Assembly: GCF_051903065.1 (NCBI RefSeq)
Contig: NZ_CP178438.1
DNA length: 64,000 nucleotides
Strand: one strand, 5' to 3'
Source of the DNA: Escherichia coli
GTDB taxonomy: Bacteria > Pseudomonadota > Gammaproteobacteria > Enterobacterales > Enterobacteriaceae
Numbering within the stretch: position 1 is the first letter of the stretch; each line of letters begins with the position of its first letter. Shown piece by piece: positions 6,001 through 12,000 of this stretch. Position numbers: made by a program.

Positions 6001-9000
6001 TTGAAGGAAAAATCCGACTCAATGAGTCTCTGGCTTGTAAGCTTGAGGAGTTATTCAACGTATCGACAGACTTCTGGATCAAGCGCGAAGTCGCTTATCG
6101 CCAGCAAATTGGATACCTCGAGAAAGTGAATAATGATTGGCTCGAATCATTGCCTGTACGTGATATGATGGAGTTTGGTTGGATCCCCAAAACTACAACT
6201 CGGGAAAGTAAATTCCAGCACTGCCTATCGTTTTTCGGAATAAATTCCGTCAATGATTTTTTTTATAAAATTCAGTCAGATGCTCCTTTGGTCGCTTTTC
6301 GTAAATCTCTTAATCTGGCAACCGAGCCTATGGCCGATTTGGTGTGGCTGACTAGGGCTGCACAACTTACCTCAAACCAAAACTGTGCTGTATGGGATAA
6401 AGAGGGGCTGATAGCATTGTTGCCAGAACTGCGCAAAGCTACAAATGAACCCGACATGAGGATTTTTATCCCTTACATTCGCGACCTTCTCGCCACTGCT
6501 GGAGTTTCTCTCGTTGTGTTGCCAACGCCAAAGGGATGTCGGGCAAGTGGTGCTACCTGCTTTTTTACACCAGATCGCGCAACCCTAGTCATGAGTTTCC
6601 GTTATCTGACCGATGACCATTTTTGGTTTACGCTGTTTCATGAGATTGGGCATCTCATCTTGCATGAAGCTGTCCGAGTTCGCGTAGAAGGTAAAGATAG
6701 TCTTTCGTCGGAAGAGGAAAAGGAAGCAGATAAATTTGCCGTTGATGTTCTTATCCCAGAAGAATACCGGCAGCAACTTAGTCGCTATGGTGTCCGGCAT
6801 TGGAAAGAGATCATCCGGTTAGCTAGGAAAATGGGGGTATCCAAAGGGATCGTACTGGGATATTTGCAGCATGAAGGTAATATACCTTTTTCTCACCTTA
6901 ATCGGTTTAAAGTGAGATTCCGTAAAGAAGATATCGTCTGATATCAGCCGCCGAAATAGACATAACGGTCAGGTGATTTCTGCCAGTTGCACAACGCATC
7001 TTCAATAACCTGCATTCTCAAGTAGGGTGCAGGAATAATTGCCGCAAGGTCAGCTAGTTTTTCATTCAATACGTCTATTGTGTCACCAGCAGTCCGGCTA
7101 TTGCTGAAAAGTAGCCGGCTTCCTTGAAGGGGCCCGGTTGCTCCATTCAGAAAAGCATGACCCGGCTCTACATCCAGAAGTCCCGTTTTCTTGAGCATAG
7201 TTAGGTAATCAAATTTTGCGGTTCGTCCAAATGAGATCACGGCATTTAGCCCTGAATACAATAGTTCGAATAAAGATTCTGGTGAAGATGAAAAGCTCTT
7301 GGCCTCTGCAAACCTAGCCTCATGACTGTGTGTAGCACCAATGAATCCGATGTAAGAGCGAAAAACCGCAGGTATTGAACGACGAGAGTGATATTTCTTC
7401 GTTTCATATTTCCGATGGTTACCATATTGTCTTAGGCTACTGTTAGCTGTCAACTCATCAGAGACGCTGGCGAACCATTGTTCAAAAGCAGCAAAGTCAT
7501 CAGTTATCGTATCCCATGTCCACGTTTGTGTACCGAGTCCACTGTATATATCTCGACACAAAATCCAGCCGGTTTTGTTACTCTTGCCGAAATGTGTGGC
7601 AAGGAAAACCAGCCAGCAGGCTTCATCGTAATTGTTGTCACGAAGATAAAGGCAGGCAGCGCGGAGAGGATCAAAAACATCAGAATTCGGCTCTTTTCGT
7701 AACGGAGTCATATAATCGGTCCGTAATGCAAGAGTTTCCACATAGCGTATACGACGTATACTGTCGATAATCTGACAGGCTAAAACATCAAAGCAGGCAG
7801 GAGAACTTAGGCCATTTAGGTTGTGTTCATTGCGGCTAAAATTTTGCAAATTACTAACCAGCTGACTGATTTGATTATGTCTTTTCATTGTAGTCTTCCT
7901 TCAAAAATAAACCGATATTCCTGATTTTTCATTGCAGCCAACTCTTGGAAGGCTAGTCCTTTGTGGTTGGGTGTATGTGAACGTAACAAAAAGTGGATTT
8001 TTAATATACGCAATAAATCCTTCCAGTAGTCATTCAAGGAAGTAGTGTCAATATCAAATTCCTTATTCTCTCGAAGAGCTTTTTCTGCCTCAAGCAGGGG
8101 TAAGATATCATCTAAGGAATGCATTTCAGGCATCGATCCCATGACTGGTAGGGTGCTCATGAACCCCTCTTTCTGAAGAGCCTTCACTTTTTCTAAATCA
8201 TTTTTATAGAGATGTAGGCTGGATACAAAGTGATGATAGTGACCCAATTCGCATCCTATCAAGCGGGCAACTAATTCCTGTAGCATCGTGAACGCAAATA
8301 CATCATGAGGCAGCCCCATAAAGGCATCGTTAGAACGCATACAAACAAATAGATGCAGCTCTTCACATCTGACAATAAACTGCATAGATATTGTACAAGG
8401 AATATCTACGTATTCTCGCTGTTCAGTTTTTGAGGGCACCAAGTCTGAGGCATCGAAAAGCTGTATTACTGCACGTCTGGTAGGTTTTTTCTCCTGCAAA
8501 AGGTTGATAACATTTTTTAGCTGATTATATAAACCACGCATATTAAACAACCGTGGCCCGTAACCACCATGTATTTTCCCATCTGACTCAGCGGATTCAG
8601 CGTAACGTGGTATGAAGTGTTTTATAAACTCAAGATCGTTCTGAGCTGAGAGATACCACAGAAATTCACCTAAGCAACTAATTAGTTTTCCTCGGGATTC
8701 TGTTCTACTTATTCTTCGGCGGGGGTCGGTAAGGACAAGATAGGCACCAAGAATCTCTAGAGTTGATCCTTTTGTAGGATCGTTACTGAGTCCATCCGCT
8801 AGGATAGCTTGATGAACATCGTTTATCAGATCGTCAACACACTCAGCCGTTACCAAAAGAGTCATTTTCTACCTTTTCCTGTATGGTAGTAACTAATCAT
8901 TACCACCTGTATGGCATATAGTCAATATAGTATCAATATCAACATGGTTCACAGGGTAAGTAAGACTTGATCTTACCCAGCAATAGTGGACACGCGGCTA

Positions 9001-12000
9001 AGTGAGTAAACTCTCAGTCAGAGGTGACTCACATGACAAAAACAGTATCAACCAGTAAAAACCCCGTAAACAGCATTCGCCTGAATTTCTCAGTGAAGCC
9101 CTGAAACTTGCTGAACGCATCGGTGTTGCTGCCGCAGCCCGTGAACTCAGCCTGTATGAATCACAGCTCTATGCGTGGCGCAGCAAACTGCAGCAACAAA
9201 TGAGTTCGTCAGAGCGTGAAAGTGAACTGGCCGCTGAAAATGCCTGCCTGAAGCGGCAACTGGCGGAGCAGGCAGAGGAACTGGCTATCCTCCAAAAGGC
9301 CGCGACATACTTTGCGAATCGTCTGAAATGAAGTATGTCTTTATTGAAAAACATCAGGCTGAGTTCAGCATCAAAGCAATGTGCCGCGTGCTCCGGGTGG
9401 CCCGCAGCGGCTGGTATACGTGGTGTCAGCGGCGGACAAGGATAAGCACGCGTCAGCAGTTCCGCCAACACTGCGACAGCGTTGTCCTCGCGGCTTTTAC
9501 CCGGTCAAAACAGCGTTACGGTGCCCCACGCCTGACGGATGAACTGCGTGCTCAGGGTTACCCCTTTAACGTAAAAACCGTGGCGGCAAGCCTGCGCCGT
9601 CAGGGACTGAGGGCAAAGGCCTCCCGGAAGTTCAGCCCGGTCAGCTACCGCGCACACGGCCTGCCTGTGTCAGAAAATCTGTTGGAGCAGGATTTTTACG
9701 CCAGTGGCCCGAACCAGAAGTGGGCAGGAGACATCACGTACTTACGTACAGATGAAGGCTGGCTGTATCTGGCAGTGGTCATTGACCTGTGGTCACGTGC
9801 CGTTATTGGCTGGTCAATGTCGCCACGCATGACGGCGCAACTGGCCTGCGATGCCCTGCAGATGGCGCTGTGGCGGCGTAAGAGGCCCCGGAACGTTATC
9901 GTTCACACGGACCGTGGAGGCCAGTACTGTTCAGCAGATTATCAGGCGCAACTGAAGCGGCATAATCTGCGTGGAAGTATGAGCGCAAAAGGTTGCTGCT
10001 ACGATAATGCCTGCGTGGAAAGCTTCTTTCATTCGCTGAAAGTGGAATGTATCCATGGAGAACACTTTATCAGCCGGGAAATAATGCGGGCAACGGTGTT
10101 TAATTATATCGAATGTGATTACAATCGGTGGCGGCGGCACAGTTGGTGTGGCGGCCTCAGTCCGGAACAATTTGAAAACAAGAACCTCGCTTAGGCCTGT
10201 GTCCATATTACGTGGGTAGGATCACATAACCTGAAATGGCACTAATGGCCAGAGCTTACTAATACATAATCCCTACAGGATGTAGCCACCAGTTTTGTTC
10301 ATCCGGTATTCTGATTTGGTAACATGCTCCAGAAAGGAAGAAATATGTACTGCAATGAATTAAAAGAATTTGCGCAAGAGCAGGAACAAAAACTTATCAG
10401 TGCGCTTGCTGATACCAGAGAGCACCCGTCCCCCGATGGTGAAACAAGAAGCCGGGATAATTATCAACGGGATTACGCGCGTATTCTGTATTCATCATCA
10501 TTTCGCAGGCTGCAGGGAAAGATGCAACTTTTTGAAATTGATCCTGAAAAATTCAACAGAAACAGATTAACGCACAGTCTTGAGGTTGCTCAGATCGCCC
10601 GAAGTATCGCGTCAGACCTCAAACTGATTAACCCGGTGGTGGTTGAACTGGCAGCGCTGGCGCATGACATCGGAAATCCTCCTTTCGGTCATTCCGGTGA
10701 AAAACTGCTTAATGAACTGTCTGAAGAAATCGGCGGCTATGAAGGTAATGCACAGGCGCTACGTATCCTGAGAAAACTGGAGAAGAAATTTTCATACTGC
10801 AACGGATTAAATCTGACTCACCGTAGTTTACTTTCGGTTGTTAAGTATCCCATCCCCCGCGCTGCAGCTACTGCCGGCAAGTTCATTTATGATGATGATT
10901 ACTATTTTTACATTAACCTGCTTGCTGAAAATCAGCTCGATCTGAATCCCGGAGAGAAAACGATTGATGCGCAGATAATGGATCTCGCGGATGAGATTGC
11001 CTACGCCGCGCATGACCTGGAAGATGCCCTTAGCAGGAACATGGTCACGATTGAAGATATTGAATATGAGTTTCAGATTTCTGACGAATTCCGGGGAGCG
11101 AGGGAACAGTTCAGGGAAATCGTTACTCAGTCGAGAAACACCGCTTTTCAGGCTAACTTACTGAAAACCTCAGAAGAATTTGCCATCATATTCCGCAAGG
11201 AGTTAACTTCAAATATTGTCAATCGCCTCGTTGCAGATATTTCTGTAGTAACGAACCTGAATGGTTTTCAGGAACTGGGGTTCGGGAAACTGAATGCGTT
11301 ATCCGAAGGACTCAAAAAACTTCTCTTTAAAGTCATCATGCGAAAACGTAATATCCTCACCTATGAGTTCAGGGGAAATAAAATAATCAGGGATTTATAT
11401 GACTTTTACAATGAAGGAGAGAATTATAAATTTCTGCCTCCTGAACTTAAATTCACCTTACCCCAACCAGATTCCTGTATATTTGAAATCAGCAAAAAAC
11501 GAGCAGTGGTTGACTATATTTCAGGTATGATGGATACATTTGCAGTCAAGGAATGGGAAACTCACTGTCTGAAGTAACACTGCCGATTACCAGAGGCGCA
11601 TATTTTCCCGTTATGGTTATTGCGCCTTTATTCCGTTTCGGTGACAGGTTATTTTAAATATTCTGGAAATGCGTTGATGGGCAAGAACAATTACCCTGAA
11701 AATAAATACAGGAAATGGTTTTCCACAGCAATAACATATCTTATTACAGGTGGTTTGTGCTGGTATATGTTGTGGGCATCCGCTATATCTCATTATACTG
11801 TTTTACAAAATACGGTACCTGAATGGACAACATATTTTTGCACCGGTATAATCACCGGATCTCTTTCTTTTATTTATGCATTTTATATCCGCACCTTTAA
11901 CAGAACATTAAAGTCTTTATTAAATGCATTCACGGGGGGATTTTGTCTTGGATTTATACTGAGTCCTGATGAATCCCCTAATGATTTTGATAAAAATCAT

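What the first reader, a model, noticed from the sequence alone, without database searches (positions are those of the whole stretch)
8968..10225. IS3 copy without matching target-site duplication and with a frameshifted orfA
The 3 bp flanking the IS3 ends differ (act vs cat), suggesting an IS-mediated rearrangement or deletion rather than simple insertion. orfA carries an apparent 1-nt deletion in an A-run (9057-9061), so OrfA and the OrfAB transposase would not be made; alternatively a homopolymer sequencing error. The IS separates the ThyA-like operon promoter region from the dGTPase gene.
Basis: seen in the sequence. Interest (0 to 1): 0.35.

Follow-up and report, generated by a model that had tools for sequence, protein, structure and literature searches.

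The report
Dead IS3 at a deletion junction
This is an old, inactivated copy of the common E. coli jumping gene IS3, inherited unchanged by many strains, sitting where about 10 kb of a genomic island was deleted; it is real but ordinary.

Summary
Its 3-bp flanks differ (ACT/CAT), and no 2-5 bp duplication fits. orfA has an A5 run (9057-9061) where K-12 IS3 has A6, so it stops after 23 codons.

The frameshift is not a sequencing error. The IS plus both flanks covers at least 80% of the query in 185 complete E. coli genomes (the 39 one-piece listed hits are 100% identical), and NCBI's PGAP annotation marks it "frameshifted".

The missing duplication reflects a rearrangement:
- IS-free relatives show the left flank (ThyA-like module) natively continues into a type I restriction system.
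- The right flank (dGTPase gene) is natively preceded by cdiB.
- Strains CS18F and KKo009 carry ThyA module, the same IS3, about 10 kb (toxin fragment, arc operon, cdiA'/cdiB), then dGTPase. The window equals this minus 9,986 bp starting exactly at the IS3 right end.

The single IS-free ThyA/dGTPase junction (strain EC2) is a secondary 1,273-bp loss between TCACA microhomologies, not the empty site.

The copy is also a mosaic: all 56 differences from K-12 IS3 lie in orfA, whose 3' half is ISEc16-like. Known biology, low interest.

The parts
8968..10224 (+). Defective IS3 isoform ('IS3*'), 1257 bp
   Evidence: The IRs are found. Its alignment to K-12 IS3C shows 56 differing columns, all between 9056 and 9322. 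PGAP annotates it 'IS3 family transposase, frameshifted'.
8968..9006 (+). Left inverted repeat (IRL), identical to K-12 IS3
10186..10224 (+). Right inverted repeat (IRR), identical to K-12 IS3; its terminus is the deletion endpoint
9033..9104 (+). Truncated orfA reading frame: ATG, 23 codons, then TGA
   Evidence: Read directly from the sequence. The PGAP CDS start maps to 9033.
9057..9061 (+). A5 run, a 1-nt deletion relative to A6 in K-12 IS3 (the frameshift)
9166..9322 (+). Divergent patch in the 3' half of orfA. It is about 77% identical to K-12 IS3 and about 90% identical to ISEc16, which marks the copy as a mosaic isoform.
9292..9298 (+). CCAAAAG run in the orfA/orfB overlap region, unchanged from K-12 IS3. 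Its assignment as the programmed -1 slippery site rests on prior knowledge only.
   Evidence: One search shows no differences at 9281-9312. Its function was not tested.
9328..10194 (+). orfB (288 aa, rve/DDE integrase core), intact and with no nucleotide differences from K-12 insF from position 9323 onward
8952..8967 (+). 16 bp (CAGGGTAAGTAAGACT) of native ThyA-module sequence abutting IRL. It is present without IS3 in SCU-152 and absent from EC2.
8949..8953 (+). TCACA, left copy of the 5-bp microhomology that bounds the EC2 deletion
10222..10226 (+). TCACA, right copy of the microhomology (the last 3 nt of IS3 plus 2 nt of flank)
10225..10344 (+). Remaining 120 bp of the native cdiB-dGTPase intergenic region. 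Homology to IS-free genomes starts exactly at CAT 10225.
7885..8865 (-). ThyA-like gene, the last gene of the left-flank module
10345..11577 (+). dGTPase-family gene (right-flank module)

Best explanation
The element is a vertically inherited, transposition-defective IS3 isoform. A 1-nt deletion in codon 9-10 of orfA abolishes OrfA and the OrfAB transposase.

Shown:
- It lacks a target-site duplication because its two flanks were brought together by an IS3-associated deletion.
- In the progenitor arrangement, preserved in strains CS18F and KKo009, the order is ThyA-like module, then IS3*, then about 10 kb (orphan VENN toxin fragment, arcA-arcC-argF cluster, cdiA', cdiB), then dGTPase.
- In the window lineage the 9,986 bp that begin exactly at the IS3* right terminus are gone, so IRR now abuts the CAT that lies 120 bp upstream of the dGTPase start codon.

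Inferred (most likely route, about 0.5): a second, intact IS3 inserted at that CAT in direct orientation. RecA-dependent IS3 x IS3* recombination then removed the interval and one IS copy. A hybrid of this kind is seen in strain CT30 in the same island. The alternative route (about 0.3) is an adjacent deletion catalysed in trans on the intact ends of IS3* by transposase from another IS3 copy.

Later events used the same dead IS as a breakpoint:
- replacement of the left flank (fec-IS1F|IS3*|dGTPase in strain 83972);
- replacement of the right flank (Z0117EC0116);
- a 1,273-bp loss of the IS plus 16 bp between TCACA microhomologies (EC2).
For: Frameshift is real and inherited:
- A5 in the window versus A6 in K-12 IS3.
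- The IS plus 600 bp of each flank matches at 100% in one ungapped piece in the 39 one-piece hits listed, and covers at least 80% of the query in 185 complete genomes from many hosts and laboratories.
- PGAP flags it 'frameshifted'.
- Copies at the same site in other strains have accumulated further private substitutions and indels, as expected of a pseudogene.

The flanks are not contiguous natively:
- SCU-152 (IS-free, 98.3% identical ThyA module) carries the 16 bp and then continues TGACGTTC... into hsdS.
- C311, CS18F, SCEC020022 and A1.S1.65, plus metagenome contigs L014, L018 and L027, have cdiB...CTGGCAA|CATAACC-dGTPase without IS3.
- In both comparisons homology stops exactly at an IS3 terminus.

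Progenitor arrangement:
- CS18F and KKo009 have the identical left junction and an A5 IS3*, followed by 9,986 bp and then the native cdiB-dGTPase junction.
- The IS3|VENN' junction occurs in 38 complete genomes.

Precedent for IS3 x IS3 recombination in this island: CT30 has a K-12-type intact IS3 with the same right junction but a left flank 4.7 kb further left, and the ThyA module is deleted.

Literature: absence of a duplication is generally attributed to recombination between ISs or to adjacent deletion. IS3-family (IS150) movements associated with deletions, without duplication, have been observed directly (PMC11708052).
Against: - Neither 'original' junction was found in 5,426 E. coli genomes: cdiB...CAACAT|IS3 and IS3|ACT-TGACGTTC. 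The two sub-mechanisms therefore cannot be told apart, and the order of events rests on parsimony.
- Even in CS18F the IS3* flanks differ (ACT/CAG), so at least one earlier, unreconstructed rearrangement exists.
- The dGTPase-side allele of the window differs about 1.8% from that of CS18F. CS18F is therefore a model of the progenitor, not the direct ancestor, and allele exchange by recombination has occurred.
- Only a sample of the 368 genomes carrying either flank was inspected.
Confidence: 0.85

Rival explanations
1. The A5 run is a homopolymer sequencing or assembly error and the IS3 is actually intact.
For: Homopolymer indels are a common error class. The lesion is a single base in an A-run.
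Against: The same A5 allele with both flanks appears at 100% identity in dozens of listed complete genomes, and the locus covers at least 80% of the query in 185. It is also present in metagenome contig L021. PGAP marks it as frameshifted in independent assemblies. Sister copies show additional decay, including ATG>AAG and further indels.
Confidence: 0.01
2. It is a simple IS3 insertion whose 3-bp duplication has since decayed by point mutation.
For: Duplications can erode. The insertion is old enough for the IS itself to have picked up substitutions.
Against: ACT to CAT needs changes at all three positions, while the surrounding flanks are 99.8-100% conserved among strains. The IS-free versions of the left and right flanks continue into unrelated DNA.
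Confidence: 0.02
3. Strain EC2 shows the true empty site (GGTTCA|CATAACC), and a unit of 16 bp of donor flank plus IS3 inserted there, for example through use of a surrogate left end.
For: EC2 is the only genome in which the ThyA-like and dGTPase genes abut without IS3. The difference from the window is exactly 16 bp plus the IS. The 16 bp loosely resembles an IS3 end when read in inverse orientation (my reading of the sequence).
Against: The 16 bp is native to the ThyA module: SCU-152 has it (1 SNP) with no IS3 anywhere near. The dGTPase side is natively joined to cdiB. EC2 is 1 of 368 genomes carrying these flanks, and among the four strains compared (S1-IND-01-B, CS18F, 83972, C311) its right flank is closest to the IS3*-bearing strain S1-IND-01-B, while its left flank is nearly identical to both S1-IND-01-B and CS18F. 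The deletion endpoints share a 5-bp TCACA repeat, as in microhomology-mediated IS loss (bioRxiv 10.1101/2023.06.07.543989).
Confidence: 0.03
4. The same deletion occurred, but it was produced by transposase acting in trans on the intact ends of the defective IS3* (a classical adjacent deletion) rather than by recombination with a second IS3 copy.
For: Both IRs are identical to those of active K-12 IS3. The host lineage carries other IS3 copies (3 places in the record 99.99% identical to the window across window 1-30226). The deletion starts exactly at the IS terminus with only A|CA microhomology. OrfAB over-production raises adjacent deletions in IS3-family elements (PMC11708052).
Against: No second copy of the IS3* isoform was seen outside the ThyA-module, dGTPase-module and fec/IS1F contexts in the hits inspected, so there is no sign it is mobilised in trans. 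CT30 shows that IS3 x IS3 homologous recombination does operate in this island.
Confidence: 0.3

Closest known systems
IS3 of E. coli K-12 (e.g. IS3C, NC_000913.3 566777-568034; insE/insF)
   Same: The 39-nt IRs are the same, and so is the organisation (orfA/orfB overlap, ATGA junction, CCAAAAG run). There are no differences at 8968-9055 or at 9323-10224. Overall about 95.5% of alignment columns are identical.
   Different: One A is missing from the A6 run, so orfA is truncated. Fifty-five further differences are concentrated at 9090-9322. There is no 3-bp duplication, whereas IS3B and IS3E of K-12 have one.
ISEc16 (IS3 family)
   Same: The 3' half of the window's orfA is about 90% identical to ISEc16, against about 77% to K-12 IS3.
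   Different: The rest of the element (orfB) is only 62-92% identical to ISEc16 per 100-nt block, but 100% identical to IS3. The window copy is therefore an IS3 with an ISEc16-like orfA patch, not an ISEc16.
IS-adjacent deletions and IS x IS recombination junctions, such as the IS150-del events in the E. coli long-term evolution experiment (PMC11708052)
   Same: The IS is retained, DNA on one side is lost starting at the IS terminus, and there is no duplication.
   Different: Here the IS is itself defective and the event is ancient and widely inherited. The mechanism is inferred, not observed.
Microhomology-mediated IS loss (IEE-type excision; ISApl1 loss from Tn6330)
   Same: The EC2 junction removes the IS plus a few flanking bases between short direct repeats (5 bp), and the deletion size is close to the IS length.
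   Different: Neither the presence of iee nor an active transposase in EC2 was tested. Replication slippage is an equally good cause.

Membership tests
IS3 (IS3 family, IS3 group) | Terminal imperfect inverted repeats of about 39 bp, 5'-TG...CA-3' | tested here: met
   The arms lie at 8968-9006 and 10186-10224 and are identical to K-12 IS3C.
IS3 (IS3 family, IS3 group) | Length about 1258 bp and at least ~95% nucleotide identity to reference IS3 (the isoform criterion is recalled from ISfinder practice) | tested here: met
   The element is 1257 bp, with 56 differing alignment columns against the 1258-bp IS3C, about 95.5% identity. This is borderline.
IS3 (IS3 family, IS3 group) | orfB encodes a DDE (rve) catalytic domain | tested here: met
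   Pfam rve, E = 5e-28, plus rve_2 and HTH_21.
IS3 (IS3 family, IS3 group) | Intact orfA in phase 0 upstream of orfB in phase -1, allowing OrfA and OrfAB synthesis | tested here: not met
   The 1-nt deletion at 9057-9061 gives a stop after 23 codons. The copy is a member by descent but a non-autonomous pseudogene.
IS3 (IS3 family, IS3 group) | 3-bp target-site duplication | tested here: not met
   The flanks are ACT versus CAT, and no 2-5 bp alternative matches. Two of the four full-length K-12 copies also lack one.
IS-associated deletion junction | One IS junction shared with a progenitor arrangement, the other new, with the missing DNA starting exactly at the IS end | tested here: met
   CS18F and KKo009 share the left junction. 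The 9,986 bp at L034 10265-20250 are absent from the window.
IS-associated deletion junction | Both flanks are contiguous with different DNA in IS-free relatives | tested here: met
   SCU-152 for the left flank. C311 and metagenome contigs for the right flank.
IS-associated deletion junction | Mechanism identified (transposase-mediated versus homologous recombination between two copies) | not testable with these tools
   Neither reciprocal nor intermediate junctions were found.

The most novel reading that the evidence does not exclude
The dead IS3* is more than debris. It may persist as a fixed, portable stretch of homology that repeatedly reshuffles defence and competition modules in this island (thymidine-modification module, dGTPase, CDI/orphan toxins, fec), and it may supply read-out transcription to the dGTPase gene, whose native upstream region it truncated to 120 bp. 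At least five different flank combinations around the same IS lineage were seen.
Probability: 0.12. Interest if true: 0.3.

Novelty: already known. Interest (0 to 1): 0.12.

Why it matters
Mostly as housekeeping.
- It shows that the frameshift is biological and should be annotated as an IS3 pseudogene.
- It shows that the ThyA-like module and the dGTPase gene in this window are not an operon-like pair. They are two independent modules fused by an IS3-associated 10-kb deletion.
- This matters for anyone interpreting the neighbouring genes as one defence system.
- It also provides a clean natural example, with progenitor, product and secondary derivatives all present in public genomes, of a dead IS acting as a recurrent breakpoint.

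Tried and rejected
- Other IS3 ends in the window, as evidence for an inversion partner: none found. The native cdiB-side sequence is also absent from the window.
- The hypothetical original junctions in 5,426 E. coli genomes: cdiB...CAACAT|IS3 gave only an irrelevant hit, MB19, which has a different IS3 inside a dgt gene. IS3|ACT-TGACGTTC gave none.
- EC2 as the empty site: rejected after SCU-152 showed that the 16 bp is native.
- Metagenome contigs with the same right junction but K-12-type IS interiors or odd left flanks (L016, L019, L024): not used as evidence. Short-read assemblies can thread the wrong IS copy through a repeat, and L024 has about 1.8x coverage.
- Rfam scan of the IS region: no match at E <= 1.
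- Promoter and terminator consensus scans around the IS and in the native cdiB-dGTPase spacer: no more matches than in shuffles. Nothing can be said about dGTPase promoter loss.
- The transposase fragment left of the ThyA module (4284-4826) as a possible second IS3 forming a composite transposon: by eye it looks like an ISL3-type C-terminus, not IS3. This was not tested further.
- The native left neighbour of the VENN' fragment could not be recovered, because C311 carries a different orphan toxin module there.
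Full report
**1. What is in the sequence**

The region contains one complete IS3-type element. Its 39-nt imperfect inverted repeats are at 8968-9006 and 10186-10224. Each end sequence occurs once in the 64-kb window and is not expected by chance.

The bases outside the ends are ...GTAAGACT on the left and CATAACCTG... on the right. No duplication of 2-5 bp can be made to match.

orfB (9328-10194) is an intact 288-codon frame with rve/DDE domains.

**2. The frameshift**

Against K-12 IS3C (L006 2778-4035, 1258 bp) the window copy lacks one A of the run AGT-AAAAAA-CCCC, leaving A5 at 9057-9061. ISEc16 has the same number of bases as K-12 at this position.

Read directly, translation from ATG 9033 now stops at TGA 9102-9104 after 23 codons. 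OrfA cannot be made. By established IS3-family knowledge, and as stated in PMC11708052, neither can the OrfAB fusion transposase.

The lesion is not an error:
- The IS plus 600 bp on each side is found at 100% identity in one ungapped piece in the 39 one-piece hits listed, and covers at least 80% of the query in 185 complete E. coli genomes. The strains come from chickens, pigs, humans, cattle, rivers and a panda.
- PGAP annotates it as a frameshifted pseudogene in every assembly inspected.
- The window is 99.99% identical over 30 kb to strain ECCNB12-2.

**3. The copy is a mosaic and is decaying**

All 56 differences from K-12 IS3 lie between 9056 and 9322. The IRL region and everything from 9323 to the right end are identical.

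The divergent 3' half of orfA is about 90% identical to ISEc16, while the rest of the element is far from ISEc16.

Copies of this isoform at the same locus in other strains differ at scattered positions:
- The window type has private 9245T and 10180A.
- S1-IND-01-B has four private changes.
- The 83972/Z0117 type has lost the start codon (ATG>AAG) and has further indels.

This is the pattern of an old pseudogene.

**4. Why there is no duplication**

*(a) Left flank.* Strain SCU-152 has a 98.3% identical ThyA-like module with no IS3. Its sequence runs ...GGTTCACAAGGTAAGTAAGACT|TGACGTTCTTATATG... into a type I R-M hsdS gene. The 16 bp next to IRL is therefore native ThyA-side DNA, and homology to the window stops at the IS3 left end.

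*(b) Right flank.* The dGTPase upstream region is ...GGTTCGCACTGGCAA|CATAACCTGAAATGG... and is preceded by a divergent cdiB gene in each of these IS-free sequences:
- metagenome contigs L014, L018 and L027;
- strain C311;
- strain CS18F;
- by coordinate contiguity, strains SCEC020022 and A1.S1.65.

Homology to the window starts exactly at the IS3 right end.

*(c) Progenitor arrangement.* CS18F and KKo009 carry both halves on one island, in this order:
- hsdMR;
- an ISL3-like fragment;
- MazG-like, XRE and aGPT-like genes, then the ThyA-like gene;
- the 16 bp;
- IS3* (A5);
- a VENN toxin fragment;
- arcA-arcC-argF and neighbouring genes;
- an IS66 fragment;
- cdiA' and cdiB;
- the native spacer and the dGTPase gene.

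The window arrangement equals this minus 9,986 bp (L034 10265-20250), beginning at the IS3* terminus. Only A|CA microhomology is present at the endpoints. The IS3|VENN' junction is present in 38 complete genomes.

The reverse polarity is implausible. It would require inserting 10 kb precisely between the IS end and CAT so as to recreate the native cdiB-dGTPase junction.

**5. The EC2 'empty site'**

Only one of 5,426 genomes joins the two flanks without the IS. EC2 reads GGTTCA|CATAACC and lacks both the IS and the native 16 bp, 1,273 bp in all. TCACA is present at both deletion endpoints in the IS-bearing form (8949-8953 and 10222-10226).

Among the four strains compared, EC2's right flank is closest to that of the IS3*-bearing S1-IND-01-B. 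Its left flank is nearly identical to both S1-IND-01-B and CS18F.

EC2 is therefore a secondary, microhomology-bounded loss of the IS. This is the kind of scar discussed for IEE-stimulated or slippage-mediated IS loss. It is not the pre-insertion site.

**6. Other derivatives around the same IS**

- 83972-type strains have fec-IS1F...TTG|IS3*|CATAACC-dGTPase. The right junction is the same and the left flank is new.
- Z0117EC0116 has that left flank with a new right flank.
- CT30 has the VENN' right junction. Its IS3 is an intact K-12-type copy, and its left flank lies 4.7 kb further left, with the ThyA module missing. This is most simply a product of recombination between IS3* and a second IS3.

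None of these copies has a duplication. For comparison, two of the four full-length K-12 IS3 copies have 3-bp duplications and two do not. Absence is therefore common for this IS.

**7. Mechanism**

Shown:
- the flanks derive from different native contexts;
- a 10-kb interval adjacent to the IS is missing relative to a preserved progenitor-like arrangement;
- the IS is defective in all ThyA-linked copies.

Inferred: the deletion arose in one of two ways.
- Homologous recombination between IS3* and a transient second IS3 inserted at the CAT upstream of dGTPase. I favour this at about 0.5, because IS3* cannot act on itself and CT30 provides a local precedent.
- Adjacent deletion by transposase supplied in trans to its intact ends, at about 0.3.

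Neither predicted intermediate or reciprocal junction exists in the complete-genome collection, so this remains open. An earlier, unreconstructed event must also exist, because IS3* lacks a duplication even in CS18F (ACT/CAG).

**8. Comparison with what is known, and novelty**

The element is an IS3 by ends, size, orfB and about 95.5% identity. It fails the 'intact orfA' and 'duplication' features, so it is a defective member. PGAP already annotates it as such.

Absence of a duplication through IS x IS recombination or adjacent deletion is textbook and has recently been re-examined (PMC11708052). Nothing here departs from known IS biology.

The useful outcome is interpretive. The ThyA-like module and the dGTPase gene are independent modules juxtaposed by deletion, not a native pair split by an insertion.

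**9. Verdict**

- The sequencing-error alternative is rejected.
- Interest is low (0.12), and the novelty rating is 'already known'.

Noticed in passing
window 5126-8865: The left-flank module pairs a divergent thymidylate-synthase homologue (7885-8865, Pfam Thymidylat_synt 5e-25) with a 314-aa protein. That protein hits aGPT-Pplase3 (5e-90) and Amino acid:DNA transferase (9e-59), families tied to thymidine hypermodification and usually found in phages. The module also contains an XRE-HTH/M78 peptidase regulator (PADLOC PD-Lambda-2_B 9e-30) and a MazG-like gene. No PADLOC hit was found for the first two or for the MazG-like protein. A chromosomal DNA-hypermodification or defence module may deserve its own look.
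   Followed up: partly
window 10345-11577 and 11970-25418: The dGTPase gene matches the PADLOC dGTPase defence model (2e-109). Homology to other islands ends at 11969 and resumes at 25419. The intervening ~13.4 kb holds papA'/papB/papI remnants and an ISCR2-floR-tet(A)-strAB-sul2 resistance region, by transfer from the annotation of ECCNB12-2, which is 99.99% identical to the window across 1-30226. This is a second rearrangement just downstream of the finding.
   Followed up: partly
L002 (EC2, NZ_CP041955.1) 6290-6300 versus window 8949-10226: A natural example of IS loss between 5-bp microhomologies (TCACA) that removed the IS3 plus 16 bp of flank. EC2 also has extra small indels in the dGTPase gene (annotated as frameshifted), which may be assembly errors.
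   Followed up: partly
L036 (CT30, NZ_CP032078.1) 3043-4300: An intact K-12-type IS3 (A6, 1258 bp) sits at the same right junction as IS3* in CS18F, but its left flank corresponds to window position 4235 and the ThyA module is absent. This is probably an IS3 x IS3* recombinant deletion.
   Followed up: partly
window 4284-4826: A 180-codon transposase fragment lies between hsdR and the MazG-like gene (PGAP: transposase, frameshifted, missing N-terminus). By eye it resembles an ISL3-type C-terminus. It marks the left boundary of the ThyA module relative to C311.
   Followed up: no
L010 (SCU-152) versus window 1-8967: The order of the ThyA module and the type I R-M operon is swapped between SCU-152 (int-ThyA module-hsdSMR) and the window type (hsdSMR-tnp'-ThyA module), with the same gene orientations in both. 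This implies a further translocation or a duplication followed by deletion that I did not reconstruct.
   Followed up: no
L016, L019, L024 (metagenome contigs): These contigs have the same IS3|CATAACC right junction but K-12-type IS interiors and three more left flanks (...CTG...TCA...CACAGGG). They may be real extra rearrangements or short-read assembly chimeras through the repeat.
   Followed up: no
L007 (E. coli E70 plasmid p1) 1500-2662: A plasmid-borne IS3 copy carries a related variant orfA (93.6% identical to the window's orfA) and its own frameshifts. The ISEc16-like orfA patch therefore defines a wider IS3 sub-lineage, not just this locus.
   Followed up: partly
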